64,000 nt of DNA from Bacteroidota bacterium (GTDB lineage: Bacteria > Bacteroidota > Ignavibacteria > UBA10030 > UBA6906): NCBI GenBank assembly GCA_017860635.1, contig JAGDMK010000001.1, positions 15,727 to 79,726 of the forward strand, in the 5' to 3' direction. How positions within the stretch are numbered: the first letter of the stretch is position 1; every line of letters begins with the position of its first letter. A program made the position numbers and the translations under genes. Below, one piece after another: positions 5,795 to 57,256 of this stretch. The notes under the pieces were generated by a model. It ran no database searches. It had not been told where the DNA came from and was given only the letters and a program-made list of their open reading frames with translations.

Positions 5795-7939
5795 ATGAAA
5801 ACGCGTTTCCGCTGCCTCGCAATCGTCCCTGTTCTGCTGTGTCCCTCTGCTTCTGCCCAATGGATACAGACGAACGGACCCTACGGCGGAGATGTGCTGT
5901 GCTTTGCCGCAAGCGGCCCATATGTCTTTGCCGGCACTTCGCGGGGTGGTGTCTTCCTCTCCAGCAATGGCGGCACAAGCTGGACATCGGCGGGTGCAGG
6001 GTTGACGCACTACTCTGTCAATGCGCTTGCTGCGAGCGGTGAATATCTTTTTGCCGGGACCGGTGGTGGTGGCGTGTTTCGTTCGACCAATGGAGGCACA
6101 AGTTGGACTGCCGTGAGTTCCGGCTTGACGTGCCGTGATGTCCGATATCTTGCCGTCAGCGGCACCAATCTCTTTGCCGGGACATGGGGCGACGGTATCT
6201 TACGTTCAACTGACAACGGCACAAGCTGGACCGTCGCAGATTCGGCAGGGGAATGCATATCATCTTTGGCAATCAGCGGCACGAACATCTTTGCGGGTGA
6301 ACCCGGCGTCGGGGGTGGGTGAGGAAATGCCTGGACCCTGGGTGGGGTCCGCCTCTCTACTGATAACGGCACAACCTGGGTCAAAGTCGACAACACGCTG
6401 GGCTGCCGGGATGTGCGTGTTCTGGCTTTGAGTCCTCCTTCCGGCGGAGAGAATGTCCCGAACCTCTTTGCCGGGACTTCCAACGGCGTGTTTCGCTCGA
6501 CCGACTGCGGTGCATGGTGGTCGGGCTCGAGTGTTGGCTTGAGTAGCACTGACATCAGGTCTCTTGCCGTCAGCGGCACAAATCTCTTTGCCGGGACGTG
6601 GGGTGGCGGTGTCTATGTATCGTCCAACAGTGGCGCAAACTGGACACGCATCGATTCTGGCTTGACAAACCGTCGAGTCAGATCGGTTGCCGTCTTCGGC
6701 ACCACTCTCTTTGCGGGAACTGATAGCGGCATCTTCCTCTCTGTGAACAGCGGTACAAGTTGGACTGCCGCCAATTCCGGCTTGACGAGCACGTATGTGC
6801 GATCTCTGGTCGTCAATGGCACAAGTCTCTTTGCCGGGACCGAAGGTGAGGGTGTTTTTCGTTCGACCGACAGTGGCACAAACTGGATCACCGCGAGTTC
6901 CGGTCTGACAAACCCTGATGTCAGATCTCTTGCCTTCGACGACACAATCCTCTTCGCCGGGACTGGCGGCGCCGGCGTCTTTCTCTTGAGAGATGGCGGT
7001 ACAAGCTGGAAGGCGGCGAATGCCGACATGAAAGGCGCTAACGTCTATTCGCTTGCCGTCGGCGGCACAAGTCTCTTTGCGGGGACCGAAGGGGCCTTTT
7101 TCCGTTCCACCGACAATGGCACGACCTGGACCAGGGTAGACTTGCCGAGTGATTGTGTCTGTGCTCTCGCCGTCATCCCCTCCGGCAGCGGGACAGGCGT
7201 TACAGAGGTCTATGCCGGAACCTGGGGGGACGGCGTATTTCGTTCGACCGACAGTGGCAGGAGCTGGACGTCGGCGAGTACCGGTCTGACGAGCACCACT
7301 ATCTTGTCTCTTGCCGTCAATCCCGCCGGTGACGGGACTGGCGCCACAGACCTCTATGCTGGAACCTGGGGGGGCGGCGTATTTCGCTCGCCCCAGAGCG
7401 GCACAAACTGGATGGCAGCAAGTACCGGCCTGACGTGCCCCTCGGTCCACGCGTTTACCGCCTCCGGAAAGAATCTCTTTGCGGGAACGACCAACGGGGT
7501 TTTTCTCTCGACAGATCGCGGCACGTCCTGGACGAATACCAGCTTAACAGACGTATCTGTCCATGGTCTGGCGTGTTCCGGTACGAATCTTTTTGCTGGA
7601 ACTCTTGGGTCCGGTGTGTGGCGGCGTCCGCTCTCGGAGTTGGTTACCCACGTTGAGATGCCACCACTCCGCCCGACTTCATTTGCACTACACCAGAACT
7701 ACCCGAACCCGCTCAACCCGAGCACGACCATCAAGTATGAGTTACCCAAATCATCGGAGGTCAGATTGAGCGTGTTCGATATGCTCGGACAGGAGGTATC
7801 TGTCTTGGTGAATGAGAGGAGGGAGGCAGGAGTTCACGAGGTCAAGTTTGACGGTTCAAATCTTGCGAGCGGAGTGTATTTCTACCGACTACAGGCAGGT
7901 GATTTCGTTGAATCGAAGAAACTCGTGCTTTTGAAATAG
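5795..7939 (+). CDS. BNR/Asp-box ~45-aa-repeat beta-propeller cargo protein with T9SS CTD, interrupted by an in-frame TGA at 6320-6322 (candidate recoded or split gene)
   Basis: ORFs 5795-6322 and 6413-7939 are in the same frame and separated only by TGA, with no other stop in between. The upstream part has the signal peptide 'MKTRFRCLAIVPVLLCPSASAQW'. The downstream part has ~12 'NLFAGT.GGGVFRSTDNGTSWT' repeats and the CTD but no signal peptide of its own. Confidence 0.6.
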
Positions 7940-8512: not shown

Positions 8513-10729
8513 ATGACGACTCAATTCATCTGTCTTGCACTCGTCATTGTTCTGCTTTGCCCCTGTGTGCCAGCCCAATGGGTCCAAACGACCGGTCCTG
8601 GTGGTGGTAATATCGGCGCCATTGCCGTCAGTGGCACGAATGTGTTTGTGGGGACAGGCTTCCCCTTTTTTGGTGTTCACAATGCCGGTGGTGTCTTTCG
8701 CACAACGGACGATGGAGCAAGCTGGACCGCGGCCAACTCTGGTCTAACGGACATGTGCATCGGTTCTCTTACGGTCAGTCCCGCCTCCGACGGGGCAGGT
8801 GGGGTGAATCTCTTCGCAGGGACTCTCTGCGGTGGAGTCTTACGCTCCACCGACAACGGGACAAGCTGGACTGCTACAAGTTTGACGAGTGCGTTTGTCA
8901 CCTCTTTTGCCGTCAGTGGCACAAATCTCTTTGCGGGGTCCCCCGGACCTACGTGATATGGTGGTGAGACCCCAGGTGGGGTCTATCGTTCAACGGACAA
9001 TGGTAGCACCTGGACTGCGGCTAGCTCAGGTCTATCGAACTCGGTTGTCCGTTCTCTTGCCATCAGCGGGACGAATCTCTTCGCGGGGACTGACGGCGGT
9101 GTGTTTCTTTCTACCAACAACGGGATGAGTTGGAGTTCGGCCAATAGCGGTCTGCCCCTCCCGGACCAGTTCGGCAATGTTGCTAGTGTCATGTGTTTTG
9201 CGGTCAGCGGCGCGAATCTCTTTGCGGGCACTGGTGGTGGCGGGGTCTTTCTTTCCACGAACAATGGGACAAGCTGGACAGAAGCCGGCTTGACAAATAG
9301 TCGAGTTGGTGCTCTTGCTGTCTCCGGCACGAATCTCTTCGCGGTGACAGGCAGGTTTCTTGACAGTGGAGTCGTCTTTCGTACCACGGACAATGGTACA
9401 AACTGGACTGCGGCTAGTTCAGGCCTGCCGAACATGTGGGTCCGGTGTCTTGCTGTCAAAGGGACGAATCTCTTTGCATGCGGTGACGGCGGTGTGTTTC
9501 TATCCAGTGACAGCGGCACAAGCTGGAGTTCGGTCAACGCTCGTCTACCGAACACGGAGGTCTCGTCTCTTGCTGCCGCTGGGACAAATCTCTATGCGGG
9601 GACACGCCATTTCGCCGGTTACACTCTAGCCGTCTTTCTTTCAACCGATTTCGGGACAGACTGGGTCGTGTACAACGAGGGTCTGACAGACACGAGGGTC
9701 AGGGTTCTTGTTGCCAGTGGGATGTATCTTCTTGCTCAGAATGATAGCGGCGGTGTCTTTCTTTCCAGGGATAGCGGCAAAAGCTGGACCACGGCTAGCT
9801 CAGGTCTGACGAACACGTATGTCAGCTGTCTTGCTGTCAGCACATCCTCCGACGGGACAGGTGGTACGAATCTCTTTGTGGGGACTGGGTACGACGGTGT
9901 ATTTGTTTCCACCAATAACGGTACAAACTGGAATGCGGTCAACTCTGGTCTAGCCAACACTCGTGTATTGTCTCTTGCAGTCAGCGGGACAAATCTCATT
10001 GCAGGCACGGAAGGCGGCGTGTTTCTTTCCACGAACAGGGGAACAAGCTGGAGTCCTGTCAAATCAGGTCCAATAGGTACGTATGTGAATTCCCTTGTTG
10101 TTGGCGGGGCGTATATCTTTGCGGGGACTTACAATGCTGGTGTCTTTCTTTCCACTAATAGTGGGGTAAACTGGACTGCGGTCAATAGTGGCCTCCCAAA
10201 AGACCAGAACGGCATTCTGCCCCATGTCATGTGCTTTGCTGTCAGCGGCGCTAATCTCTTTGCGGGAACTGACGGCGGTGTCTTTTGTACAACCAACGAC
10301 GGCGTAAGCTGGACTGCCGTCAATACCGGTCTGACAAACACTTCTGTCGAGGCACTCGCCGTATCGGGCGCGTATCTCTTTGCAGGCACTGATGGGGCAG
10401 GTGTGTGGTGCCGCCACTTGTCGGAAATGATTACCTCGGTTGAGCCCGTGGTGACCGAATTACCGCACGAGTTCTTTGTCCAACAGAACTACCCCAATCC
10501 CTTCAATCCGAGCACGACCATCACGTACGCGCTACCTAAGTCTTCAGAAGTCAAATTGAGTGTCTTTGACATGCTGGGTCGTGAGGTCTCTGTCTTGGTA
10601 GGCGAGAGCAAAGATGCGGGGGTCCACCAGGTCAAGTTTGACGGTTCGAATCTTGCGAGCGGAGTGTATTTCTACAGATTAAAGGCGGGAGTTTTCGTAG
10701 CGACGAAACGACTGCTTTTACTAAGATGA
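8513..10729 (+). CDS. BNR/Asp-box repeat beta-propeller cargo protein with T9SS CTD, interrupted by an in-frame TGA at 8954-8956
   Basis: ORFs 8513-8956 and 9101-10729 are in the same frame with no other stops between them. Signal peptide 'MTTQFICLALVIVLLCPCVPAQW'. Many 'NLFAGT..GVFLSTNNGTSW' repeats. CTD 'NYPNPFNPSTTITYALP'. Confidence 0.6.
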
Positions 10730-17883: not shown

Positions 17884-20046
17884 ATGAGGAGCCAATTCAT
17901 GGGCATAGCGCTCGCCGTGGTTCTCGTTTGCGCCTGTGCGCCCGCTCAATGGATACGAACCAACGGACCTTATGGTGGCTACGTCCACGCATTTGCTGCC
18001 AATGACACCAATCTTTTTGCGGCCACTTATGGCAGCGGTGTCTTTCTCTCCACTAACCATGGCAACAGCTGGACGCCGGCCAGCACAGGTTTGACGAACA
18101 GGGGCGTGAATACGCTTGCATTCAGCGGCACGAATCTCTTCGCCGGGACTGAGGGCGATGATGTCTTTCTCTCAACGAACAACGGTGAAAGCTGGACTGC
18201 CGTCAGCACTGGCTTGACGAATCAGTATATCTATGCCCTTGCTGTCTCCGGCACGAATCTCTTTGCCGGAGGTGGCGGCGTATTTCTTTCAACAAACAAT
18301 GGCACAAGCTGGAGTGCGGTCACAACGGGGTTGCCGACGGGATATGATGTCAGAGCTCTCGCCGTTTCCGGGACGAACCTTTTTGCAGGGACTTCTGGCA
18401 ACGGCGTCTTTCTCTCCACCGACAATGGCACCAACTGGACGCCGGCAAATGCGGGCTTGGAGCGCGCTAGTGTCTATGCTCTCGCCATCTCGGGGACGAA
18501 TCTCTTTGCTGGGACTTGGGGTAGTGGGGTCTTTCTTTCGACTGACAACGGCACAAGCTGGTCTTCGGCGAGTACAGGTCTGGTGAGTACATGTATTGTT
18601 GCCCTGGCCATTAGCGGGACCAACCTGTATGCGGGGGCAAGCCCCTCGTGAGGTAGTGCCCCGGCCTCAGGTGGGGTCAATGTTTCGACAGATAACGGAG
18701 CAAGCTGGAGAGCAGTCAATACCGGCTTGACGAATATGTATGTCTTAGCTCTTGGTGTCTTTGGGACGGATCTCATTGCCGGGACTGATGGCGATGGAGT
18801 CTTTCTCTCCACGAACAACGGTGAAATCTGGACAGCTGTCAACACAGGAATAACCAACACAGGTATCAACGTCATCGCTAGGAGCGATACAAATCTCTTC
18901 GCAGGGGCTCATGAGATGGGTATCTTTCTCTCCACAAACAATGGTGATAGCTGGACATCGGTCAGTGCAGGATTGGCGAACATGACTGTTAATGCTCTTG
19001 CATTTAGCGGCACAAGCGTTTTTGCGGGGACAGCGGGTGGAGTCTTTCTCTCCACGAACAACGGTTCAAGCTGGACGGCCGTCAGCGCATGGAGCGGGGA
19101 TGTCTGTGCCTTGTCTGTCAGCAACATGAATCTCTTTGCGGGGACTCATGGTGGCGTCTTTCGCTTCACCAACAATGACAGTAGGTGGACCGCAGTCGAC
19201 ACGCGTTTGACGAACGGGCCTGTCTTCGCGCTTGCTTCCAGCGACGGGTATCTTTTTGCGGGCACTGATCTTGGCGTATTTCGCTCCACGAACGATGGCA
19301 GTAGCTGGACAGCGGTCAACGCGGGTCTACCCGATAGGATGAATGTCCGTGATTTAGCTTTCAGCGGCACCAACCTTTTTGCGGGAACAGCTGAGTACGG
19401 TGTCTTTCTGTCTACAGACAATGGTGATAGTTGGACAGCCGTGAACACAGGCTTAGTCAACACGTGCGTGCAAGCGCTTGCAGTCGCCGGCACAAACCTC
19501 TTCGCGGGGACTGCTTTCCACGGTGTCTTTCTGTCTACAAACAATGGTAACAGTTGGACAGCCGTGAACTCAGGCTTAGCCAACACGGACGTGAAAGCGC
19601 TTGCTGTCAGCGGCGCCAACCTCTTCGCGGGAACAGCTGGAATATATATGCTTTCAGGTCGTTTTGGTGGTGGCGTGTGCAGACGACCTCTCTCAGAGAT
19701 GATTACTTCCATCGGAACCATCACAAACGGTCTCCCCGAAGAGTTCTTGCTCCATCAGAACTACCCAAACCCCTTCAACCCGAGCACCACCATCAAATAC
19801 GAGTTGCCTGCATCGTCTGATGTCAAACTGAGTGTGTACGATGTGCTTGGTCGTGAGGTGTCAGTATTAGTGAATGAGAGAAGGGATGCGGGAGTTCACG
19901 AAGTGAAGTTTGACGGTTCTGGTCTTGCGAGCGGATTGTATTTCTACCGATTACAGGTCCGCCCTCTGGACTCCGCCATCGAGCGAGACTCCAAGAGCGG
20001 AGCTGGCGATTTCGTAGCGACGAAACGACTCCTGTTATTGAAGTAA
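17884..20046 (+). CDS. BNR/Asp-box repeat beta-propeller cargo protein with T9SS CTD (CTD variant with an 18-aa insertion), interrupted by an in-frame TGA at 18649-18651
   Basis: ORFs 17884-18651 and 18727-20046 are in the same frame with no other stops. Signal peptide 'MRSQFMGIALAVVLVCACAPAQW'. CTD 'YRLQVRPLDSAIERDSKSGAGDFVATKRLLLLK'. Confidence 0.6.
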
Positions 20047-20186: not shown

Positions 20187-22754
20187 ATGAAAGACAGGTC
20201 TTTCTGTCTCGCAGATCCATCAACGGCAACGACCCTCAGAAGATATTGCATGGTTCTTCTTTCCTTGGTCCTGTTGTCCGCCGACCTCTGGGCACAACGT
20301 GGAGCCTGGACAAGGAAAGCAGACATGCCAACTGCAAGGGCCGTTGTCTCCGTTTGTGTCGTCAACAACAAGATCTATGTGATCGGAGGAGTGGACAGGA
20401 TCGGCGGTAGTCTCGTCAGCGTGGCTGTCAACGAAGTCTATGACCCTTCAACGAATACCTGGGAAGTGAAGAAGCCTCTGCCGTTACCCAGATCGTTTGT
20501 TTCCACAGCGGCTGTGGACAGCATCGTCTATGCCATAGGCGGCATTCACGAGGGGTTTCATCCCGATGTTGGTACGTCGACAGTTTACGCTTATGATACA
20601 GGGACTGATTCGTGGACCCAGCGAGCAAATATGCTTGGGCCGAGGTATGCTGCATCGCCGGGCGTTGTTGATGGAATCATCTATAATGTTGGGGGTAATC
20701 ATGTTGAGCACAATTGCGAAGCGTACAATCCGGCAACAGACACATGGACGAGGAAGGAGGATATCCCTGAGGCCTACGGAGGTGTAATGGTGGCCTCATA
20801 TGGTGGACTACTCTATGGATTCGGTGGAGGATTTGACAGATCATTCCAAACAGTCTACGCTTATGATCCGAAGACAGACAGATGGACAAAGAAAGCAAAC
20901 ATGCCTACGGCCAGAGCTACTTCCCAGGCCGTTGTAGTCGACGGCAAGATGTACGTCCTGGGAGGATACACTTCTTATCCCCTCGGTGATGTGCTGCCGG
21001 ATCTGGAAGTATATGATCCAGTTGCAGACCGCTGGAAAAAGTTGCCAGACATGCCATTCCCGCGCACAATGTTTGGAGCTGCCGCAGTAAACGGTAAGAT
21101 TTATGTAATAGGTGGAACATTTGACTATCAGATGGGTTTCAACGATGTGTGGGAGTATGATCCCGCATTCCATACGGATATTGCCGCAGGTACGGTCAGC
21201 GGCACCTGGACGCTGGACGGCTCTCCATATCACATCAATGGCGAAATCACAGTACCGAACGACTCAACACTCACCATAGAGCCGGGAGTGGAAGTTGTAT
21301 TCCTGGGGCATTACAAATTTAACGTCCAGGGCAGGCTGCTGGCAGTCGGCACACAACAGGATACGATACGATTCAGAGCTGCGGATACGCAGACCGGCTG
21401 GCACGGGATACGGTTCGAGGATACCCCCAGTACAAACGATACGTCAAAGATCTTCTACTGCTCACTGAAGTATGGAAACGCAAACACAGGCTCTGGTCTT
21501 GATCGAAGTGGCGGTGCAATGCTGATATCTCATTTCGACAAAGTCTTGGTGTCCCACTGCCTGTTTGATTCCAATCAGCAGAGTGGTGATGGGTGGCATC
21601 CGCCCGAAGCAGATGGCGGAATCTTTGTTTACTATGCTTCAACGACAATTACGAATAGTACGTTTTCCAACAATACAAGTTCAAAAAGTAGCGCGATCGG
21701 ATGTGTATATTGTCCTAATGTCATCATATCAAACAACGTGTTTCACAACAACACTGGGAAGTATGGTGCCCTCGCCTGTTGCTACTATAGCCGGGGAACG
21801 ATATCAGGCAACATGTTCTACAACAATGTCGCAACTGAAGCTGCAGGTGGACTGCTCATTGACAACGGTGGGGCGCCGACCATTGCAAATAATGTCATTG
21901 TTCACAACCAAGGCTTCGTTGGCGGCATCTTGTGCTATAAAGGTGGCAAGCCAGTCTTGATCGGAAATACTATTGCCTACAACACAGCCAGCTATGCAGG
22001 GGGCGGTGTTGGCTGTAGTGAGGATGGCAATCCAGTTCTCATCAACAACATCATCTATGGCAATGCTGCTCCTATTGGAAAAGAAGTAGCCCTTGACGAT
22101 GAGTCGTGTGATCCGACTATTCTGTACTGCGATATCGAGGGTGGTAAGGCAGGCCTCGGGGGGACAGGCGCTGGAGCAAGTTATGCCGGGCTTTATGAAC
22201 ACAACATCGACGCTGACCCTCTGTTTGTTGATCCCGCCTCGGATGATTACCGTCTTTCAAATCATTCTCCATGTATTGGTGCTGGCACTGACTCAGTGGA
22301 GATCGCCGCGGTCTGGTACCGTGCTCCTGCATACTGTATAGGAGGGCGTGCCCGACCAAGCCCAGCCGGAACGAGGCCCGATATCGGGGCTTATGAGAAT
22401 CTCTTTGGATCACCAGTTGGTGTCAGTCAAGGGCTAATGAGCCCAAAGGAATTTTCTCTCCATCAGAACTACCCAAACCCGTTCAACCCAAGCACGATCA
22501 TCACGTACGAGTTGCCAAAATCCTCGGTAGTGAGGTTGAGCGTATACGACATGCTTGGACGTGAGGTGGTAGTGCTGGTGAACGAAAGGAGAGAGGCGGG
22601 AGTTCACGAGGTCAAGCTCGACGCGTCGGGATTATCGAGCGGAGTGTATTTTTACCGATTACAGGTCCGCCCTCCGGACTCCGCCATCGGGCGAGACCTC
22701 AAGGACGGAGCGGGGGACTTTGTAGGCACGAAGCGGCTCCTCTTGTTGAGGTAA
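20187..22754 (+). CDS. Kelch-repeat propeller plus parallel beta-helix secreted protein with T9SS CTD (insertion variant)
   Basis: RBS 'aaggagg' then an ATG at 20187. Kelch motifs 'NNKIYVIGG..EVYDPSTNTWEV'. A beta-helix region paralogous to the 10996 gene. CTD 'NYPNPFNPSTIITYELP..YRLQVRPPDSAIGRDLKDGAGDFVGTKRLLLLR'. Confidence 0.75.
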   Translation: MKDRSFCLADPSTATTLRRYCMVLLSLVLLSADLWAQRGAWTRKADMPTARAVVSVCVVNNKIYVIGGVDRIGGSLVSVAVNEVYDPSTNTWEVKKPLPLPRSFVSTAAVDSIVYAIGGIHEGFHPDVGTSTVYAYDTGTDSWTQRANMLGPRYAASPGVVDGIIYNVGGNHVEHNCEAYNPATDTWTRKEDIPEAYGGVMVASYGGLLYGFGGGFDRSFQTVYAYDPKTDRWTKKANMPTARATSQAVVVDGKMYVLGGYTSYPLGDVLPDLEVYDPVADRWKKLPDMPFPRTMFGAAAVNGKIYVIGGTFDYQMGFNDVWEYDPAFHTDIAAGTVSGTWTLDGSPYHINGEITVPNDSTLTIEPGVEVVFLGHYKFNVQGRLLAVGTQQDTIRFRAADTQTGWHGIRFEDTPSTNDTSKIFYCSLKYGNANTGSGLDRSGGAMLISHFDKVLVSHCLFDSNQQSGDGWHPPEADGGIFVYYASTTITNSTFSNNTSSKSSAIGCVYCPNVIISNNVFHNNTGKYGALACCYYSRGTISGNMFYNNVATEAAGGLLIDNGGAPTIANNVIVHNQGFVGGILCYKGGKPVLIGNTIAYNTASYAGGGVGCSEDGNPVLINNIIYGNAAPIGKEVALDDESCDPTILYCDIEGGKAGLGGTGAGASYAGLYEHNIDADPLFVDPASDDYRLSNHSPCIGAGTDSVEIAAVWYRAPAYCIGGRARPSPAGTRPDIGAYENLFGSPVGVSQGLMSPKEFSLHQNYPNPFNPSTIITYELPKSSVVRLSVYDMLGREVVVLVNERREAGVHEVKLDASGLSSGVYFYRLQVRPPDSAIGRDLKDGAGDFVGTKRLLLLR

Positions 22755-23446: not shown

Positions 23447-25183
23447 ATGAAAATCTGTGGACCTACAATATTTCTTTGGTTCGTGATCCTTGCCCTTCTG
23501 CTCCCCACCTTTGCGCTTTCACAATTTACGCGAGAGTGGGTTGCCACCTATGACGGCAGTGTCCCTGATTCGACCGGGTACGTGTACACCAGTTGGGACA
23601 ATCTCCAAGAAATGCTTGTAGACCGGGACGGGAATATCATTCTCGTGGGCGAAACTAACCCGGCCCCTTTTGAATATTCGTTGACCACAGTGAAGTTCAG
23701 TCCGCAAGGGAAGCAGTTGTGGAAGATTGATGTCCCTTTTCCGAAAGGACCCGTGAGCAGTAACTGTCAAATGGCAGTTGATGCAAAAGGAAACGTCTTT
23801 ATTGCCTACGCCGGAGCCGTGGGGGATTCTGCGGGGTGGGTCGTCCGCCGCTTTTCTGCTGCGGGGAGCTTAACCAGAACTTTCATCTTCCCGATAGCGG
23901 AGGATATCGCGGATTGGCCAAACGCAATTGCGATAGACACATCGGATAATATCATCCTTACCGGCAAGAGTAATACGGGCGGGCTTCAGTGGGACTGCGC
24001 GACGATGAAGGCAGATTCGGCCGGTAACCTCCTTTGGACGAGGCTGTACGACAGCGGTGGATGGGATGACGGTCTTGAAATCTGCCTTGACGATTCGAAC
24101 AATATCATGGTGGCTGCCGTCGGAGCGGGGTTCGGTACCGATGACGATATGGTGACGCTCAAGTACGATGGCAACGGGAACCTCTGCTGGGCGAAGGACT
24201 ATAACGGCGGCGGACTTGGATGGACGGATGATTGGCCAGTGTCCATACAATCAGATGCTGCGGGAAACGTCTATGTAACAGGGTATAGCCAACCTTCTGA
24301 GTCTGCCTGGTATGGCATCGCTACCCTCAAGTATGCCCGCGACGGCAGAGAGATGTGGTGCAGGAGAATCGAGGATGCCCTTGTTGGGTGCTTCGATTTT
24401 TCTTCTCATCATACAATGCATGTGGATGACATCGGCAATGTCTATCTTACCGGCAGCACGGATCCTGATTCTGGTTCGGATGACCTCTTGACTTGCAAGT
24501 ATTCGACCGATGGATCTCTGCTCTGGAAGACAATTTACCCGGACAGCGCGCGCGGTGATGACCTAGGAAAGGGGATAACTGTTACACCCTCGGGCCACGT
24601 GGTCGTTGCAGGCGAAGTCTACGAGACGCTCTCGGCAGGCAGGTATCCCACGATCCTTTGCTATGACACTGCGGGCAGAATCGTCGGACGTGATATTTAT
24701 CATGGCAACGTTAGCCCGCTGGAAAAGTGGGCCTTCTCCGTTGCCATGGGTCCGGACAACAGTATTTATCTTTCTGGAATGGATGAAGATTGGGCCACGG
24801 GCCGTGATTTTCTTCTGATCAAGTATTCTCTCACGGTCACAGGAGTTGAATCACCACACAGATTGTCTCTCCCCGACGAGTTCGCCCTGGCACAAAACTT
24901 CCCCAATCCCTTTAATCCGAGCACGACCATCGAATTCGAATTGCCCCTGTCATCGGAAGTCAGATTGAGTGTGTACGATATGCTCGGGCGGGAGGTGGAG
25001 GTTCTCGTGAATGAAAGAAGGAACGCGGGAGTTCACGAGGTCAAGCTCGACGCGTCGGGACTATCGAGCGGAGTGTATTTTTACCGATTGCAGGTCCGCC
25101 CTCTGGACTCCGCCATCGGGCGAGACTCCAAGAGCGGAGCAGGAGATTTCGTGGCGACGAAACGGCTGCTTCTGTTAAGATAG
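23447..25183 (+). CDS. SBBP-type beta-propeller repeat secreted protein with T9SS CTD (insertion variant)
   Basis: RBS 'aggagggg'. Signal peptide 'MKICGPTIFLWFVILALLLPTFALSQ'. Repeated 'G.vyvtGys' units (NVYVTGYS, NVYLTGST, HVVVAGEV). CTD 'NFPNPFNPSTTIEFELP..YRLQVRPLDSAIGRDSKSGAGDFVATKRLLLLR'. Confidence 0.7.
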   Translation: MKICGPTIFLWFVILALLLPTFALSQFTREWVATYDGSVPDSTGYVYTSWDNLQEMLVDRDGNIILVGETNPAPFEYSLTTVKFSPQGKQLWKIDVPFPKGPVSSNCQMAVDAKGNVFIAYAGAVGDSAGWVVRRFSAAGSLTRTFIFPIAEDIADWPNAIAIDTSDNIILTGKSNTGGLQWDCATMKADSAGNLLWTRLYDSGGWDDGLEICLDDSNNIMVAAVGAGFGTDDDMVTLKYDGNGNLCWAKDYNGGGLGWTDDWPVSIQSDAAGNVYVTGYSQPSESAWYGIATLKYARDGREMWCRRIEDALVGCFDFSSHHTMHVDDIGNVYLTGSTDPDSGSDDLLTCKYSTDGSLLWKTIYPDSARGDDLGKGITVTPSGHVVVAGEVYETLSAGRYPTILCYDTAGRIVGRDIYHGNVSPLEKWAFSVAMGPDNSIYLSGMDEDWATGRDFLLIKYSLTVTGVESPHRLSLPDEFALAQNFPNPFNPSTTIEFELPLSSEVRLSVYDMLGREVEVLVNERRNAGVHEVKLDASGLSSGVYFYRLQVRPLDSAIGRDSKSGAGDFVATKRLLLLR

Positions 25184-25980: not shown

Positions 25981-26088
25981 ATAGTGATTCTGACTTGGCA
26001 CCAACTCAGGAGCCAGATCACTCTTTCATGGATTGAATCCCTTGCTCTCCTCATTTGCAGCACTCCGGTTAGTACAAGAAGGCACATC

Positions 26089-29000
26089 ATGTTGTTTCCT
26101 TCGTTGAGAAGCTGCTGGAAACTCAAGGTCCTCCAACCTGTGTGTGTCCTTTTGTTCAGTCTGCAGTGCATTGTATTCTCAGCCCCACGAGAGACAATTC
26201 GATTTCAGCATTTCGGTGTCGAGCAGGGACTCCCGAACAGCGCCGTGAACTGGATTCTGCTGGACGGTCACGGGTATCTCTGGGTTGCCACAGTCGACGG
26301 TCTTGGCCGCTATGACGGATACCGGTTCCAGGTTTATCGAAATAACTCCGAAGACGAAGCGAGCTTGAGCTCCAACGACGTGAGAACTCTTTTTGAGGAT
26401 CGATCCGGGAATTTGTGGGTCGGGACAAATGGGGGGTTAAACAGATTCGACTGGAAAACGGAGAAGTTCAGGCGATACCTTTACAGTGCTCATGACGACA
26501 ACAGCATCAGTTCCGATTCCATCACGACAATAGGTGAGGATGGCAAGGGTGAGTTGTGGATTGGAACGAAGGCTGCTGGCCTGAACACGTTCAACGCACA
26601 TAAGAACAATTTCACGCGGGTGGTGCTTGATACGAGTGCGCGGACGGTGGGAAAAAAGACCTTGTGCGACAACAGAGTACGCGCCATCATTCGGGATCAC
26701 AAAGGGGTTCTCTGGATTGGAACACGAGGTGGGTGGTTGCACAGGCTTGATCCCGTCACGAACGAATTCGATTGCTATCGAAGTGCTCGTACTCATACGG
26801 ACGTTCTCGATCCCGATGGAGTGAGGGCTCTCTGTGAAGACCATTCCGGGAATATTTGGCTTGGGACGTTCGAAGCTGGTATTAAGAAGTTCGATCCGAT
26901 GACGAGGAAGTTCGAGACATTCATCCACAGGTCAGGGGATCCTACAAGCCTGAGCAACAACGCCGTTAATCAGCTGCTTGTTGATCGAACGGGCGATCTG
27001 TGGATCGCGACATTTAACGGAGGCCTCGATAGACGACGCTGGCCGGAAAGGAAGTTCAAGCATTATGTGAACAACCCTAAGGACCCCGTAACCCTGAGCA
27101 GTGATAACGTCACTTCTCTTTGTGAAGATCAATCCGGGACGGTGTGGGTCGGGACTGCAGTTGGCCTTGACAAATATGTTGCAGGAATGAATATCTTTCG
27201 ACACTTCTCTCACGACCCTGACGATCCGAAGAGCCTGAGCAACAATTTCGTTGCATCGATCAAGGAGGATCGCTCGGGGAATCTGTGGGTCGCTACGTTT
27301 GGTGGGGGACTCAACCAATTCGATCCAGCAACCGGAGTGTTCGAACATTTCTTGCATAGTCCCAGAGACGCGGGTAGCATCTGCAGCAATTACGTCACCG
27401 GTCTCTGTGTGAGTCGCTCGGGCTCGTTGTGGATCGGCACGATGGGAGGAGGTCTTGACAAGCTTGCTCCTGGAAGCCGGAAATTTCAACACTATCCGAA
27501 AACCAGAAGTGACACACGCATCCGCACAATCTATGAGGATGGATCAGGCCTGTTGTGGTACGGCACATACAGTGCGGGACTGAAGAAATTCAATCCCCGA
27601 ACGAATCAGCTTACACATTTCTTTCAGGACCCGAATAATCCTCATAGCGTGACCAGTAATGTGGTTTGGGAGTTCGAAGTGGATACTGCCCGTAAGAACG
27701 AAGGGCTCCTATGGATTGCAGCCAATCATGGATTCACGAGATGTGACATGAAGCGTGAGAAATTCCAACAGTTCTTTCCGGACACTCAATACACGAGTCG
27801 AAGCAATAACATCATGCAGACTCACCAGGATCACTCTGGCACGCTCTGGCTTGCAACTCTGGGCGGTCTCTGGGGCTTTGAACCGAAAACCGGGGCCTTC
27901 GAGCACTTTACCAGCAAGGACGGTCTGGCGAATGACCTTGTTTGGAATTTGGAAGAGGATGACCATGGACGGTTGTGGATCGCGACCGGCAGCGGTCTTT
28001 CCCGATTTGATCCTCGCACGAAACAGTTTAGGAATTACGATGCCGGGGACGGGTTGCAGGGAATCCGCTTCAATTATGGCTGCCACAGCAAACTCAGAAG
28101 TGGCGAACTGTGCTTCGGAAGCACCGATGGTTTCACCATGTTCCACCCTGATAGCGTAAAGGAGAACACGCACGTTCCCCCAATTGTCATTGCAGGTTTC
28201 AGGAAGTTCAACAAACCGGTCGACATTCGGGAGGCCGTTGGTCAGTCCGGCGCGGTCGAGCTTTCATACAAAGAAAACATGTTCTCCTTTGAGTTTGCTG
28301 CATTGGACTTTGTTCGCCCCGAAGAGAATCAGTACGCCTACAAGCTCGAGGGGTTTGACAAGGATTGGGTGTACTGCGGCACGCGCCGATCGGCAACGTA
28401 TACAAACCTCGATGGCGGAGAATATGTCTTTCGAGTTAAGGGAGCGAACAATGATGGTGTTTGGAACGAAGAAGGGGCTTCCATGGCTGTCATTATCACG
28501 CCCCCGTTCTGGGCAACATGGTGGTTCCGGATACCGGCAATGATCGCTCTGCTTGGCATTGTCGGCAAAACAGTCCGGTACGTTGAAAAGAGAAAGCTGA
28601 TGAGAAGAATCGAACAGTTGGAACTGGAGCAAGCCCTGGTGAACGAACGTGCCCGCATTTCACAAGACATGCACGATGAGATTGGGTCCAGTTTGTCAGA
28701 GATTGCCATACTGGGTGAGTTGGCGAGAAAGAAGCCAGAGGAAGCGGAAAGGTACATTCAGCAGATCTCCGAACGCGCAGCGGAGGTGATTGACAGTGTC
28801 AGCGAGATCGTCTGGGCGATGAATCCGAGCTACGACACACTTGACAGTCTCGTCGCTCGCATGCGAAGGGATGCGGTCAAATATTTGGGCTTTGCGAACA
28901 TTTCCTGCAGGTTCGCTGCTCCTGACGTTGTTCCTAGCCTCCCCCTCCGCGCTGAACTGCGCAGGAATCTTTTCCTTGTCGTCAAGGAAGCTCTTCACAA

Positions 29001-29277
29001 TATCGTCAAACACTCTGCGGCCACGGAAGTCTCGATCTCTGTCAGGTGCATGAAAGGCGACCTGGAAATTCTTGTCTCAGACAATGGAAAAGGGTTTGTC
29101 CTCACTGACCGACTCGGGACAGGAAATGGCTTGAGCAGCATGCACAAGCGGATCGCTGATATGGGCGGGACTCTCAGGATAGATTCCACACCCGGTCGTG
29201 GGACACTGGTTGCAGTTCAAGCGACATTGGCAACCCATAGACCAACCGATTTACCTAATTCTAAGTATTGGATCTGA
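26089..29277 (+). CDS. Sensor histidine kinase with periplasmic two-component-regulator-propeller (Reg_prop) repeats, Y_Y_Y domain, TM, HisKA_3 and HATPase_c
   Basis: Reg_prop-like 'G.LW.GT..GL..fd' repeats (more than 10). 'YAYKLEGFDKDW' Y_Y_Y motif. TM 'FWATWWFRIPAMIALLGIV'. H-box 'HDEIGSSLSEI'. 'SDNGKGF' G-box. Confidence 0.8.
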   Translation: MLFPSLRSCWKLKVLQPVCVLLFSLQCIVFSAPRETIRFQHFGVEQGLPNSAVNWILLDGHGYLWVATVDGLGRYDGYRFQVYRNNSEDEASLSSNDVRTLFEDRSGNLWVGTNGGLNRFDWKTEKFRRYLYSAHDDNSISSDSITTIGEDGKGELWIGTKAAGLNTFNAHKNNFTRVVLDTSARTVGKKTLCDNRVRAIIRDHKGVLWIGTRGGWLHRLDPVTNEFDCYRSARTHTDVLDPDGVRALCEDHSGNIWLGTFEAGIKKFDPMTRKFETFIHRSGDPTSLSNNAVNQLLVDRTGDLWIATFNGGLDRRRWPERKFKHYVNNPKDPVTLSSDNVTSLCEDQSGTVWVGTAVGLDKYVAGMNIFRHFSHDPDDPKSLSNNFVASIKEDRSGNLWVATFGGGLNQFDPATGVFEHFLHSPRDAGSICSNYVTGLCVSRSGSLWIGTMGGGLDKLAPGSRKFQHYPKTRSDTRIRTIYEDGSGLLWYGTYSAGLKKFNPRTNQLTHFFQDPNNPHSVTSNVVWEFEVDTARKNEGLLWIAANHGFTRCDMKREKFQQFFPDTQYTSRSNNIMQTHQDHSGTLWLATLGGLWGFEPKTGAFEHFTSKDGLANDLVWNLEEDDHGRLWIATGSGLSRFDPRTKQFRNYDAGDGLQGIRFNYGCHSKLRSGELCFGSTDGFTMFHPDSVKENTHVPPIVIAGFRKFNKPVDIREAVGQSGAVELSYKENMFSFEFAALDFVRPEENQYAYKLEGFDKDWVYCGTRRSATYTNLDGGEYVFRVKGANNDGVWNEEGASMAVIITPPFWATWWFRIPAMIALLGIVGKTVRYVEKRKLMRRIEQLELEQALVNERARISQDMHDEIGSSLSEIAILGELARKKPEEAERYIQQISERAAEVIDSVSEIVWAMNPSYDTLDSLVARMRRDAVKYLGFANISCRFAAPDVVPSLPLRAELRRNLFLVVKEALHNIVKHSAATEVSISVRCMKGDLEILVSDNGKGFVLTDRLGTGNGLSSMHKRIADMGGTLRIDSTPGRGTLVAVQATLATHRPTDLPNSKYWI

Positions 29278-29302
29278 AAGCGTGTGTACGTATTCTCAAT
29301 CC

Positions 29303-29929
29303 ATGACTATCAAAGTCGCAATCGTTGAAGACAACAAGAAGATTCGGGAGGGTCTGGCAATACTCATTGACGGCTCGGAAGGATTTCAATGCTCTGCGGT
29401 GTACGACAGCGCGGAAGAAGCCTTGCGCCATCTCCCGTCATACAAGCCCGATGTAGTGTTGATGGACATCCAACTCCCAGGGATGTCTGGCATCGAGTGT
29501 GTCGCGAAACTCAAGGAGAAGAACCCGAATCTTCAGGTCATTATGCTAACGGTCTTTGAGGACGATGAGAAGGTGTTCAAGTCCATTGTTGCCGGGGCTA
29601 CGGGGTATATCCTCAAGAGGACGCCGGCGGCAGAATTGCTCGGAGCGATAAAGGAAGTCCATGAAGGCGGTTCCCCAATGTCTGACCAGATCGCCCGCAA
29701 AGTGGTGCAGGCTTTTCAGCAGATGGGAAAGTCTTCCAAGGAAACGGAGAATCTCACCGAGCGGGAGATGGAGATTCTCTCGTTCCTTGCCAAGGGATAC
29801 CAGGACCAGGAAATTGCTGACCAGTTCTTTATCAGTGTCAAGACAGTTCGAACCCACCTCAGAAACACCTACCAGAAGCTTCATGTCCGTTCCCGCACCC
29901 AGGCTGTGCTGAAGTATTTGCGGAAATAG
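29303..29929 (+). CDS. NarL/FixJ-family response regulator (REC plus LuxR-type HTH)
   Basis: 'KVAIVEDN..DVVLMDIQLPGMSGIE' receiver. 'LTEREMEILSFLAKGYQDQEIADQFFISVKTVRTH' LuxR HTH. Confidence 0.85.
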   Translation: MTIKVAIVEDNKKIREGLAILIDGSEGFQCSAVYDSAEEALRHLPSYKPDVVLMDIQLPGMSGIECVAKLKEKNPNLQVIMLTVFEDDEKVFKSIVAGATGYILKRTPAAELLGAIKEVHEGGSPMSDQIARKVVQAFQQMGKSSKETENLTEREMEILSFLAKGYQDQEIADQFFISVKTVRTHLRNTYQKLHVRSRTQAVLKYLRK

Positions 29930-44062: not shown

Positions 44063-44560
44063 ATGTGGATGACAGGTATTCTGCTCGCGTTGTTTCTTCT
44101 TCACTCAGGCGACGAATCAGGTCGACACATCAGGGTGTATTCGGTCGAAAAGAAAGGATACGTGACGGTGGAAAAGGTCGTGAAGTCGGAGAAGGAATGG
44201 CGCGCGCTACTGACACCGGAGCAATACGAGGTGACCAGAAAGCATGGTACCGAGCGGGCCTGTTCAGGGGCATACTGGGCTCATCACGAAGCCGGTGTCT
44301 ATTCCTGCGTCTGCTGCGGACTGGATCTCTTTGCGTCGAACACGAAATTCGAGTCAGGGACCGGCTGGCCCAGCTTCTTCGGTCCGGTCGCAAAGGAAAA
44401 CATCTTGAATGTCGTCGACCGGAGCTTCGGGATGGTCCGTACAGAAATCCGCTGTGCGCGCTGTGACGCCCACCTCGGGCACGTGTTTGAGGATGGACCT
44501 CCGCCGACAGGGCTCCGCTACTGCCTGAACTCGCTGGCCTTGAAATTCACGCCCCGGTGA
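44063..44560 (+). CDS. msrB: Peptide-methionine (R)-S-oxide reductase MsrB with an N-terminal hydrophobic extension
   Basis: Two CxxC pairs ('CVCCGLDLF', '[12 protein letters not shown]') and 'GTGWPSF'. The N-terminus '[16 protein letters not shown]' looks like a signal peptide or membrane anchor. Confidence 0.85.
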
Positions 44561-53532: not shown

Positions 53533-54105
53533 TTGGCCAGACGTTTCATAGACACACGTCAAAAGGAGTGTGCTACGGTGAAAACAGAACCGAACCATGC
53601 CGGGCGGACCACGCTCGGAGCAGTCATTATCCTTTGTGCCCTTGGAGTCATCGCGGGATCATGTGCACGGTGCGACCTTGACTCCGCCGGAAAGACAGAG
53701 GAGGGGAAAAACACCATGTTGCGCATCGTTTTGGGTGAAGGAGGCGGTTTTGCCGGAACCTGGGATGGGTATACAATCACGGGAACCGGTGCCGTCTACA
53801 AATGGAGCGGGAAAGGAGCGAGAGAAAATGAGGTCGAGATCGGCACCCTGGATGCCGACACGATGTGCACGCTCTGGGATGAGGCAAAGGCCCTGAGGAC
53901 AGTTCCCCCGACGGACTCTGCCGGATCTCTAGTGCGGTTCCTCAGCCTGACGGTCCAGGACACCACACGTGAATACACCTGGAGACCGCAGCTCGGTCAA
54001 AGCCCCTTCAGGCCTCTCTATCAGCACTTCTACGATCACTGTCTCATCGTGGTACAGAAATCATTACTACCGACCACAAAAAACACAGTTCCCTCTGGAA
54101 AGTGA
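53533..54105 (+). CDS. Hypothetical protein (possible lipoprotein)
   Basis: 'LGAVIILCALGVIAGSC'. The exact start is uncertain. Confidence 0.35.
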   Translation: MARRFIDTRQKECATVKTEPNHAGRTTLGAVIILCALGVIAGSCARCDLDSAGKTEEGKNTMLRIVLGEGGGFAGTWDGYTITGTGAVYKWSGKGARENEVEIGTLDADTMCTLWDEAKALRTVPPTDSAGSLVRFLSLTVQDTTREYTWRPQLGQSPFRPLYQHFYDHCLIVVQKSLLPTTKNTVPSGK

Positions 54106-57188: not shown

Positions 57189-57256
57189 GGAGAACAATGT
57201 TCCAGTCGACGGGTCCACATCCTCGTGATAAAGTCGCCCTGCGGAGACGGTCAGAG

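What the first reader, a model, noticed from the sequence alone, without database searches (positions are those of the whole stretch)
6300..6360. In-frame TGA at a conserved loop position of BNR-repeat T9SS cargo gene 5795-7939, followed 18 nt later by a conserved GGTGGGGTC hairpin arm
The 5795-6322 ORF (with signal peptide) and the 6413-7939 ORF (repeats plus T9SS CTD, no signal peptide) are in the same frame and separated only by TGA at 6320-6322. The read-through sequence is '..FAGEPGVGGG*GNAWTLGGVRLSTDNGTTW'. A functional T9SS cargo protein needs the N-terminal Sec signal and the C-terminal CTD on one polypeptide, so the gene only makes sense if the UGA is decoded. Downstream of the TGA there are 10 spacer nt, then 'GGACCC-UGGGUG-GGGUCC', which can form a 6-bp hairpin whose 3' arm lies within the Gly-Gly-Val codons. 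This geometry resembles a bacterial SECIS element (UGA, about 11-nt spacer, stem-loop with GGU in the apical region). Candidate explanations are selenocysteine insertion, programmed stop-codon readthrough, or a split or inactivated gene.
Basis: partly seen in the sequence, partly recalled or inferred. Interest (0 to 1): 0.85.

Follow-up and report, generated by a model that had tools for sequence, protein, structure and literature searches.

The report
Candidate selenocysteine in secreted propeller proteins
Three neighbouring genes for secreted, cell-surface "propeller" proteins each carry one conserved in-frame UGA stop codon followed by an RNA hairpin that matches the bacterial signal for inserting selenocysteine, so they are probably an undescribed family of selenium-containing proteins rather than broken genes.

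Summary
Gene 5795-7939 has one in-frame TGA at 6320-6322. Two paralogues in the window have the same feature in the same extended blade loop: 8513-10729 (TGA 8954) and 17884-20046 (TGA 18649).

- **RNA element.** In all three, GGTGGGGTC starts 18 nt after the TGA. It forms the 3' arm of a 6-8 bp hairpin with an (A/G)GGU loop at nt 21-24. This meets every criterion of the published bacterial SECIS model and puts G23/U24 in the E. coli register.
- **Not an error.** Six independent assemblies with strain-level SNPs keep the TGA.
- **Conserved.** Eleven distinct sequences, paralogues 47-50% and orthologues about 60-80% identical, keep the stop. All ten with DNA, including three fetched by protein alone, keep the spacing and hairpin.
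- **Translated through.** The 21-49 codons after the stop are start-less and complete a propeller blade.
- **No reassignment.** TGA ends 13 of 24 window genes.

Best reading is a new selenoprotein family of T9SS-secreted GH74-like BNR propellers (confidence about 0.75). Not shown: selA/B/C/D in these genomes, which I could not test, and any convincing Cys homologue. The family is absent from a 2026 catalogue of 119 families and from NCBIfam.

The parts
5795..7939 (+). g4: full recoded gene (714 aa). Signal peptide, about 14 BNR/Asp-box propeller blades, T9SS C-terminal sorting domain. One in-frame UGA in the B-C loop of blade 4.
5795..5857 (+). g4 N-terminal Sec-type signal peptide (MKTRFRCLAIVPVLLCPSASA)
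   Evidence: read directly from the translation, (no predictor run)
6320..6322 (+). g4 in-frame TGA, the proposed selenocysteine codon (..FAGEPGVGGG-U-GNAWTLGGVRLSTDNG..)
   Evidence: present in 6 independent assemblies
6332..6351 (+). g4 SECIS-like hairpin: stem UGGACCCU/GGGGUCCG (8 bp including U-G pairs), GGGU loop at 6340-6343, 3' arm within GGTGGGGTC 6341-6349
7700..7927 (+). g4 T9SS type A C-terminal sorting domain (Por_Secre_tail)
8513..10729 (+). g5: paralogue (738 aa, 47% identical to g4) with one in-frame UGA in the B-C loop of blade 3
8954..8956 (+). g5 in-frame TGA (..FAGSPGPT-U-YGGETPGGVYRSTDNG..)
   Evidence: orthologues
8967..8984 (+). g5 SECIS-like hairpin AGACCCC-AGGU-GGGGUCU (7 bp, -13.1 kcal/mol)
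17884..20046 (+). g9: paralogue (720 aa, 50% identical to g4) with one in-frame UGA in the B-C loop of blade 6
18649..18651 (+). g9 in-frame TGA (..YAGASPS-U-GSAPASGGVNVSTDNG..)
   Evidence: orthologues
18663..18678 (+). g9 SECIS-like hairpin GGCCUC-AGGU-GGGGUC (6 bp)

Best explanation
g4 (5795-7939), g5 (8513-10729) and g9 (17884-20046) are intact genes of a previously undescribed bacterial selenoprotein family.

**Proposed mechanism.** Each mRNA is translated from its signal peptide to its T9SS sorting domain as one polypeptide. At the single in-frame UGA, a SelB.GTP.Sec-tRNA(Sec) complex bound to the hairpin just downstream outcompetes RF2 and inserts selenocysteine. The hairpin is a 6-8 bp stem starting 10-12 nt after the UGA. 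It has an (A/G)GGU loop that puts G23 and U24 where the E. coli element has them.

**Product.** The product is a tandem GH74-like BNR/Asp-box beta-propeller of about 14 blades. It would be exported by Sec, then carried to the cell surface by the type IX secretion system. One Sec sits in an elongated Gly/Pro-rich loop between strands B and C of one blade of the first propeller.

**Shown:** the UGA; its conservation; the need to translate through it; and the conserved hairpin with fixed spacing that fits the SECIS model.

**Inferred:** that the inserted residue is Sec; that SelA/B/C/D exist in these genomes; that the B-C loop lies on the ligand-binding 'top' face (general propeller topology); and what the selenol does. 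The role could be metal or metalloid binding, or a redox or covalent link. It is unknown.
For: 1. **Three paralogues share the feature.** They are 47-50% identical. Each has exactly one in-frame stop, always TGA, always in the same extended FAG...GGV loop.
2. **Fixed geometry.** The layout is TGA-N18-GGTGGGGTC with the (A/G)GGU loop at nt 21-24 in all three. GGTGGGGTC is used for Gly-Gly-Val nowhere else among 22 GGV sites.
3. **All four bSECIS criteria are met.** The criteria come from the 2026 review (PMC13188914). The loop is 4 nt (3-9 allowed). The stem is 6-8 bp (4-16 allowed). There is a G within the first two loop positions, followed by G or U. The UGA-to-loop spacing is 17 nt (16-37 allowed). 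The MFE is -13 to -16.6 kcal/mol (limit -7.5). The register matches the E. coli minimal SECIS: stem-loop at nt 15-31, G23/U24 in the loop (PMC8659212).
4. **Not an error.** The 175-aa N-terminal fragment is recorded in 24 blocks of the collection. Six assemblies from different samples, differing by 1-10 SNPs per 4.9 kb, all keep both TGAs and both hairpins.
5. **Conserved across species.**
   - Pattern scans found an Ignavibacteriota MAG (L001), a Bacteroidetes MAG (L004) and two metagenome contigs (L013, L014), all with ORF context and pairing 5' arms. The chance hits had neither.
   - A protein search found six g5-type N-terminal fragments, 68-100% identical, all ending at ..AG[ST]PG[PH]T.
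   - DNA fetched by protein alone (L019-L021) again shows TGA-N18-GGTGGGGTC and the hairpin.
6. **Base-pairing is maintained.** 95.9% of cells are paired, against 33-61% for slid registers. One pair covaries (AU/UA/GC) and three change on one side only.
7. **Sequence after the stop is coding.** The 21-49 codons after the TGA have no start codon, stay open and encode the rest of the blade (GGVxxSTDNGxxW). tblastn aligns g5 to L001 straight through the stop. In g5-type orthologues the 34 nt from nt 15 after the UGA are identical, while the codons just upstream of the TGA do carry synonymous changes (downstream block).
8. **TGA is an ordinary stop here.** It ends 13 of 24 genes.
9. **The element is specific.** A covariance model of the element scores 54-72 bits at the three sites and 20 bits or less elsewhere in the window.
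Against: - **Sec machinery not examined.** selA, selB, selC and selD could not be looked for in these genomes. None lies in the window or in about 18 kb of extra flank.
- **No convincing Cys homologue.** Nearly all known selenoproteins have one. Among 466 relatives, only two loops carry a Cys at similar spacing (P0109, P0079), which is compatible with chance.
- **No obvious chemistry.** There is no CxxU/UxxC-type motif, and the protein is extracytoplasmic and not an evident oxidoreductase.
- **No database support.** There is no match to any Rfam SECIS family or NCBIfam selenoprotein model.
- **Weak thermodynamic signal.** Hairpin energies are not significantly better than shuffles.
- **Confounded conservation.** The 3' arm is also a conserved Gly-Gly-Val motif, so its constancy is partly protein-driven.
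- **Limited and partly biased sample.** The sequences fall into three orthologue groups, so there are few independent events. Four of the relatives were found with a pattern that fixed the 3' arm.
- **One E. coli feature is missing.** There is no bulged U17.
Confidence: 0.75

Rival explanations
1. SelB-independent programmed read-through. The UGA is decoded at some frequency by a near-cognate or suppressor tRNA (Trp, Cys, Arg or Gly), and the downstream hairpin stimulates this. The cell then makes a short periplasmic product and a full-length T9SS cargo in a set ratio.
For: Translation through the UGA is required and a conserved hairpin follows it. No Cys homologue or Sec machinery was demonstrated. 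The loop is Gly-rich, so an ordinary residue would be tolerated.
Against: Read-through stimulators have no known need for a GGU loop at exactly nt 22-24 with invariant spacing, kept across 47-50% identical paralogues. Those are SelB-recognition features. A leaky stop could be replaced by a sense codon at no cost, yet none of 11 lineages has done so.
Confidence: 0.1
2. SECIS/SelB-type recoding that delivers a residue other than Sec. One example would be Cys from a tRNA(Sec)-like tRNA, as has been proposed for some bacteria (recalled from memory, Mukai et al.; not checked here).
For: The cis evidence is the same as for Sec. Nothing here identifies the amino acid.
Against: Such systems are rare. 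There is no evidence for them in this lineage, and the tRNA and SelB genes could not be inspected.
Confidence: 0.05
3. The stop is a true stop, kept by selection. The gene is split, and the N-terminal 147-255 aa secreted fragment is the functional product, perhaps with an independently made C-terminal part.
For: Gene callers and the GenBank record annotate two separate proteins. N-terminal fragments of constant length recur in databases.
Against: The fragment ends in the middle of a propeller blade. The 21-49 codons after the stop have no start codon, yet stay open and encode the rest of the blade. The downstream part lacks a signal peptide but ends in a T9SS sorting domain, which is useless without export. 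The nucleotide-level constraint on the hairpin would have no explanation.
Confidence: 0.04
4. Pseudogene, sequencing or assembly error, or a reassigned genetic code (UGA = Gly or Trp).
For: A single in-frame stop is the commonest signature of a defective gene. The residues around the stop are Gly-rich, which fits code 25 superficially.
Against: Six independent assemblies with strain SNPs agree on the TGA. Eleven diverged lineages keep one stop at one site, with no frameshifts or extra stops over about 700 codons. TGA terminates 13 of 24 genes in the window, including neighbours with complete sorting domains.
Confidence: 0.01

Closest known systems
Bacterial selenoprotein genes with an intragenic SECIS (prototype E. 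coli fdhF/fdnG; consensus model of Zhang & Gladyshev 2005 as summarised in PMC13188914)
   Same: An in-frame UGA is followed directly by a coding-region stem-loop. The loop is 4 nt, with G in its first two positions followed by G or U. The UGA-to-loop spacing is 17 nt. The stem-loop occupies about nt 13-32, with G23/U24 in the loop as in E. coli. There are TGA-containing homologues in other organisms.
   Different: There is no bulged U17 and no Cys-containing homologues were found. The protein is not a known selenoprotein family, has no thioredoxin-like fold and has no CxxU/UxxC motif. Three paralogues lie in one gene cluster.
Predicted envelope selenoproteins: TonB-dependent receptor FCYXU-type (NF049945), GSU2204/MtrB-PioB outer-membrane beta-barrel selenoprotein (NF041027), DUF1573 selenoprotein (PF07610)
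   Same: These are predicted Sec-containing proteins that are exported beyond the cytoplasmic membrane. They set a precedent for non-cytoplasmic selenoproteins (table).
   Different: The folds are different and there is no T9SS sorting domain. Those families have Cys homologues and mostly Cys-adjacent Sec motifs. No NCBIfam selenoprotein model matches g4 or g5.
GH74 xyloglucanases and F510_1955-family BNR glycosylhydrolases (tandem seven-bladed propellers; PDB 2cn2, 5jwz, 6p2l)
   Same: Repeated Asp-box (SxDxGxxW) blades of about 41-48 aa, about 14 blades in all. Sequence similarity is weak but significant (E = 3e-9 to 2cn2; NF045728 at 160-166 bits).
   Different: Scores are below the NCBIfam cut-off (175). 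Catalytic residues were not examined. The solved enzymes matched here are not described as containing selenocysteine, as far as I know. These proteins also carry a T9SS domain.
T9SS type A cargo proteins of Bacteroidota/Ignavibacteria
   Same: An N-terminal signal peptide plus a C-terminal Por_Secre_tail/TIGR04183 domain. The genes sit in a roughly 40-kb island of at least 12 such cargo genes.
   Different: No T9SS cargo has been reported to contain selenocysteine (literature searches).

Membership tests
Bacterial selenoprotein gene (Sec-UGA + bSECIS) | In-frame UGA inside a conserved ORF, with coding sequence on both sides | tested here: met
   There is a single TGA in each 715-739-codon frame. 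The 21-49 start-less codons after it encode the rest of a blade. tblastn aligns orthologues through the stop.
Bacterial selenoprotein gene (Sec-UGA + bSECIS) | bSECIS consensus: 3-9 nt apical loop, 4-16 bp upper stem, G in the first two loop positions, 16-37 nt from UGA to loop, MFE <= -7.5 kcal/mol | tested here: met
   Loop (A/G)GGU (4 nt), stems 6-8 bp, spacing 17 nt, MFE -13 to -16.6 kcal/mol. Criteria taken from PMC13188914. bSECISearch itself was not run.
Bacterial selenoprotein gene (Sec-UGA + bSECIS) | TGA conserved at the same site in homologues from other organisms | tested here: met
   Eleven distinct sequences keep the stop: g4; six g5-type; four g9-type. Ten of them have DNA showing TGA + hairpin.
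Bacterial selenoprotein gene (Sec-UGA + bSECIS) | Cys-containing homologues aligning with the Sec position | tested here: inconclusive
   No Cys was found at the site in close relatives. Two of 466 relatives have a Cys in a similar loop (P0109 AGT-C-GDDNSL-GGV; P0079), which cannot be told from chance. The searches were limited by repeat-dominated ranking and length windows.
Bacterial selenoprotein gene (Sec-UGA + bSECIS) | selA, selB, selD and tRNA-Sec present in the same genome | not testable with these tools
   None lies in the window or in about 18 kb of extra flank.
Bacterial selenoprotein gene (Sec-UGA + bSECIS) | Selenium demonstrated in the protein | not testable with these tools
   This is an experimental question.
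E. coli-type minimal SECIS (fdhF) | Upper stem-loop about 11 nt after UGA (nt 15-31), with G23 and U24 in the loop | tested here: met
   Stems span nt 13-32, 14-31 and 15-30. G23 and U24 are in the loop in all ten sequences. Definition from PMC8659212.
E. coli-type minimal SECIS (fdhF) | Bulged U17 in the 5' strand of the stem | tested here: not met
   Nt 17 is a paired C in the g4 and g5 stems and a paired C in g9. No bulge is predicted.
Rfam SECIS families | Covariance-model match | tested here: not met
   There were no gathering-score hits in the window and no SECIS hit at E <= 10 around two of the sites.
Catalogued prokaryotic selenoprotein families (119 in PMC13188914; NCBIfam 20.0 models) | Match to a listed family or model | tested here: not met
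   The table holds no BNR, propeller or T9SS family. hmmscan of g4 and g5 against NCBIfam gives only F510_1955 (below cut-off), BamI (below cut-off) and Por_Secre_tail.
T9SS type A cargo | N-terminal signal peptide and C-terminal TIGR04183/PF18962 sorting domain on one polypeptide | tested here: met
   The sorting domain scores 44-48 bits (cut-offs 23-27). The signal peptide was read from the sequence. The two sit on one polypeptide only if the UGA is decoded.
Alternative genetic code with UGA as sense (tables 4/25) | UGA not used as a terminator genome-wide | tested here: not met
   13 of 24 confident genes in the window end in TGA at the expected end of complete domains.

The most novel reading that the evidence does not exclude
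This would be the first selenoprotein family that is a type IX secretion cargo displayed on or released from the cell surface. The Sec would sit in a flexible Gly/Pro-rich surface loop of a GH74-like propeller, with no Cys-containing counterparts and no redox partner motif. That implies a role for the selenol outside classical thiol-oxidoreductase chemistry. Possible roles are capture of soft metals or metalloids, covalent tethering, or selenium-gated production of surface proteins. The family would have expanded to at least three paralogues in Ignavibacteria-like Bacteroidota from soils and sediments.
Probability: 0.3. Interest if true: 0.75.

Novelty: new member of a known kind. Interest (0 to 1): 0.62.

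Why it matters
- **Annotation.** If confirmed, this adds a selenoprotein family in a fold, a cellular location (T9SS-exported) and a lineage (Ignavibacteria-like Bacteroidota) where none is catalogued. It would correct a recurrent error: these genes are deposited as two unrelated "BNR repeat" and "hypothetical" proteins.
- **Method.** It is a clear case where homology-based Cys/Sec pair searches would fail, because no Cys homologue was found. It would therefore be a useful test for SECIS-based and machine-learning predictors.
- **Biology.** A Sec in an exposed loop of an extracellular propeller raises a directly testable question about what a selenol does outside the cell. It also raises the question of whether selenium supply gates the production of surface proteins.

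Tried and rejected
- **Rfam.** A gathering-threshold scan of the whole window and E-value scans around two sites gave no SECIS family.
- **tRNA and sel genes.** ARAGORN found no tRNA in the window. Pfam and NCBIfam scans of all larger ORFs, plus flanks L022 and L024/L025, found no sel genes. They found only an MsrB/SelR-domain protein in its Cys form.
- **Cys homologues.**
  - Full-length g9 with U->C returned only 36-63% identical paralogue-level hits; no close full-length orthologue appeared.
  - A 64-aa loop profile returned only proteins of 112 aa or less, apparently because of a length window, so it was uninformative.
  - The exhaustive representative search with the 35 aa after the UGA was swamped by multi-repeat proteins.
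  - Regex mining of all 466 retrieved proteins found only two ambiguous Cys loops. DNA for one of them (P0109) was unavailable.
- **A possible fourth interrupted paralogue.** P0222, a 210-aa fragment on the same 85-kb MAG contig outside the window, could not be retrieved.
- **Rejected readings.** Sequencing error, pseudogene, code reassignment and termination-reinitiation were rejected for the reasons given under rival explanations. A recently inserted mobile repeat was also rejected: the 17 nt between the TGA and the loop differ extensively between paralogues, and only the spacing, pairing and loop are kept.
Full report
**1. The observation**

Frame 5795-7939 translates as 714 residues interrupted by one stop, TGA at 6320-6322. 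The part before the stop starts with a typical signal peptide (MKTRFRCLAIVPVLLCPSASA|QW) followed by BNR/Asp-box repeats. The part after it has more repeats (Sortilin-Vps10/BNR hits) and a Por_Secre_tail/TIGR04183 type IX secretion sorting domain. ViennaRNA draws it as an 8-bp stem (U13-G32 to U20-G25, counting the U of UGA as 1) with a GGGU tetraloop, at -16.6 kcal/mol.

**2. It is not a single case**

I scanned all six frames for long open segments separated by one stop. This found two more genes of the same family with exactly the same feature:
- g5, 8513-10729, TGA at 8954: ..FAGSPGPT*YGGETPGGVYRSTDNG..
- g9, 17884-20046, TGA at 18649: ..YAGASPS*GSAPASGGVNVSTDNG..

For comparison, g4 reads ..FAGEPGVGGG*GNAWTLGGVRLSTDNG... 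In each gene the stop lies in an elongated version of the short loop that normally joins 'LFAGT' to 'GGVFxSTDNG' in every blade. It sits in blade 4, 3 and 6 respectively, out of about 14 blades.

In all three genes the layout is TGA, exactly 18 nt, then GGTGGGGTC. That 9-mer occurs only three times in the 64-kb window, at exactly these sites. The full pattern had no match in 100 shuffles. Gly-Gly-Val is encoded 22 times in the paralogues by 12 different codon combinations. GGT-GGG-GTC (2.9% expected from codon usage) is used only after the three TGAs.

Each site folds into a 6-8 bp hairpin whose loop, (A/G)GGU, occupies nt 21-24. A covariance model of the element scores 54-72 bits at the three sites. 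Nothing else in the window scores above 20 bits, and those weaker hits are ordinary blades that lack the insertion.

**3. Artefact, pseudogene and code reassignment are excluded**

- **Independent assemblies agree.** The exact 175-aa N-terminal fragment of g4 is on record in 24 blocks of the assembly collection. Six loci from different ENA and JGI samples were retrieved. They differ from the window by 1-10 SNPs per 4.9 kb with no indels, and all keep both TGAs and both hairpins.
- **The source is a deposited MAG.** The window comes from an NCBI MAG labelled 'Bacteroidetes bacterium' (85-kb contig). There the two halves are deposited as separate proteins, for example MBP1655419.1 'BNR/Asp-box repeat protein'.
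- **The genes are otherwise intact.** The three paralogues are only 47-50% identical, yet each has a single stop and no frameshift over about 700 codons.
- **TGA is a normal stop here.** It ends 13 of 24 confident genes in the window, including neighbours whose sorting domains end normally.

**4. Conservation in other organisms**

*Pattern scans.* A strict DNA pattern scan of GTDB species genomes gave four hits. Two are real relatives with full ORF context: L001, an Ignavibacteriota MAG carrying a g5 orthologue that is 62% identical over the whole length, aligned by tblastn straight through the stop; and L004, a 'Bacteroidetes' MAG carrying a g9-type gene. The other two are chance hits with no ORF and no pairing 5' arm. 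A relaxed pattern on JGI metagenomes gave two more g9-type genes (L013, L014) and six chance hits.

*Protein search.* Those scans fixed the 3' arm, so I also searched by protein alone. The g5 N-terminal fragment retrieves six distinct clusters, 68-100% identical. All are 140-147 aa long and all end at ..AG[ST]PG[PH]T (..AASPGPT in P0219), so they are truncated at the same residue. DNA could be fetched for three of them (L019, L020, L021). Each shows TGA, 18 nt, GGTGGGGTC and a 6-7 bp hairpin with an AGGU loop. A fourth (P0219) has no DNA available, but its downstream gene was called in frame only 24 nt after the stop.

*Pairing.* On a seven-sequence alignment, 95.9% of stem cells form pairs, against 33-61% when the partner strand is slid by 1-3 nt. 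One pair covaries (A-U, U-A, G-C). Three pairs change on one side only (A-U/G-U, C-G/U-G). RNAalifold recovers the same helix from nine sequences. In the g5-type orthologues, the 34 nt from nt 15 after the UGA are identical. The codons just upstream do carry synonymous changes. This points to a constraint at the nucleotide level.

**5. Translation must continue through the UGA**

Downstream of the stop the frame stays open. It encodes the rest of the interrupted blade and the next blades for 21-49 codons before the first possible start codon in most sequences (4 in L014). A propeller blade cannot be made from two polypeptides without a start codon. The C-terminal part also has a T9SS sorting domain but no signal peptide of its own. 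Termination-reinitiation and a 'two genes' reading therefore do not work.

**6. What the element matches**

The 2026 review of prokaryotic selenoproteomes gives the bacterial SECIS model (PMC13188914). The three sites compare with it as follows:

| Criterion | Model | Observed |
|---|---|---|
| Apical loop | 3-9 nt | 4 nt |
| Upper stem | 4-16 bp | 6-8 bp |
| UGA-to-loop spacing | 16-37 nt | 17 nt |
| MFE | <= -7.5 kcal/mol | -13 to -16.6 kcal/mol |

The E. coli minimal SECIS is a stem-loop spanning nt 15-31, 11 nt after the UGA. Its essential nucleotides are G23 and U24 in the loop and a bulged U17 (PMC8659212). The elements here span nt 13-32, 14-31 and 15-30 and have G23 and U24 in the loop. 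They lack the U17 bulge.

**7. What is missing**

- I could not examine the rest of any of these genomes for tRNA-Sec, SelA, SelB or SelD. The window, plus about 10 kb beyond its 3' end and about 8 kb beyond its 5' end, holds none.
- No convincing Cys-containing homologue was found. Among 466 retrieved relatives only two carry a Cys in a comparable loop (P0109: AGT-C-GDDNSL-GGV; P0079). That is what chance could give, and the DNA of P0109 was not available.
- There is no CxxU/UxxC motif.
- There was no Rfam SECIS hit.
- The hairpin energies are not significantly better than shuffles of this G+C-rich sequence.
- The 3' arm doubles as a conserved Gly-Gly-Val motif.
- The sequences fall into only three orthologue groups.

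**8. Explanation**

The best-supported reading is SelB/SECIS-directed insertion of selenocysteine at one position of a T9SS-exported, GH74-like tandem propeller (confidence about 0.75).

The closest solved relatives are GH74 xyloglucanases (E = 3e-9 to 2cn2). The closest NCBIfam model is the F510_1955 glycosylhydrolase family, below its cut-off. From general propeller topology the B-C loop lies on the 'top' face, the usual ligand-binding face.

The role of the selenol is unknown. Possibilities are metal or metalloid binding, a selenenyl-sulfide with a nearby Cys, or selenium-dependent gating of full-length product.

The rival readings and their confidences are:
- hairpin-stimulated read-through without SelB (0.10);
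- SECIS-type delivery of another residue (0.05);
- a conserved true stop (0.04);
- pseudogene, error or code change (0.01).

**9. Novelty**

The 119-family catalogue in the 2026 review, the BSepDB paper and NCBIfam 20.0 contain no BNR, propeller or T9SS selenoprotein. Full-text searches pairing selenocysteine or selenoprotein with T9SS, type IX secretion, beta-propeller or Ignavibacteria found nothing relevant.

The mechanism is the known one, so I rate this a new member of a known kind. It has unusual features: it is extracytoplasmic T9SS cargo, no Cys homologues were found, there is no redox motif, and three paralogues sit in one cargo island.

Noticed in passing
window about 19957-20001 (g9), about 22665-22709 (g10), about 25094-25138 (g11): Three T9SS sorting domains carry the same 45-nt in-frame insertion (aa VRP[LP]DSAI[EG]RD[SL]K[SD]G) between 'YRLQ' and 'AGDFV'. 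It contains the inverted repeat CTCCGC...GCGGAG. It is absent from g4, g5 and the other sorting domains in the window.
   Followed up: no
window 1-39400, also 54102-59059: This is a dense island of T9SS cargo genes, with at least 14 ORFs ending in Por_Secre_tail. They include BNR propellers, NosD/beta-helix proteins, an M1 and an M4 peptidase, Kelch-type repeats and a GlcNAc 2-epimerase-like protein. A PorV-like gene lies at 59130-60164.
   Followed up: partly
window 44063-44557 (+): This is an MsrB (Pfam 'SelR' domain) gene with an intact ORF, so it is the Cys form. It is not evidence for or against Sec use.
   Followed up: no
proteins P0109 and P0079 (relatives, not in the window): Two family members carry a Cys in an elongated B-C loop with spacing like the Sec loop (AGT-C-GDDNSL-GGV; AGS-C-SIDWG-GGI). 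P0109 comes from the same JGI sample (3300075153) as the TGA-type P0219. They may be Cys counterparts or chance.
   Followed up: partly
protein P0222 (same 85,218-bp MAG contig, outside the window): This is a fourth signal-peptide-bearing N-terminal fragment (210 aa), ending at ..GLTSTIVLALAVSP. It may be another interrupted paralogue. Its locus could not be retrieved.
   Followed up: partly
proteins P0128, P0235, P0247, P0266 and others (database relatives): Many database fragments of this family switch into a shifted frame (..RLSFHQQRHKLD..) inside or near the same loops. These are probably homopolymer errors in long-read MAGs. They are a reminder that interrupted genes in this family are common for trivial reasons.
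   Followed up: no
window 25984-29929 (+): A Reg_prop/Y_Y_Y hybrid histidine kinase is followed by a LuxR-type response regulator, between the propeller genes and further cargo genes. The same pair precedes the BNR protein P0109 in a related contig, so it may regulate the island.
   Followed up: no
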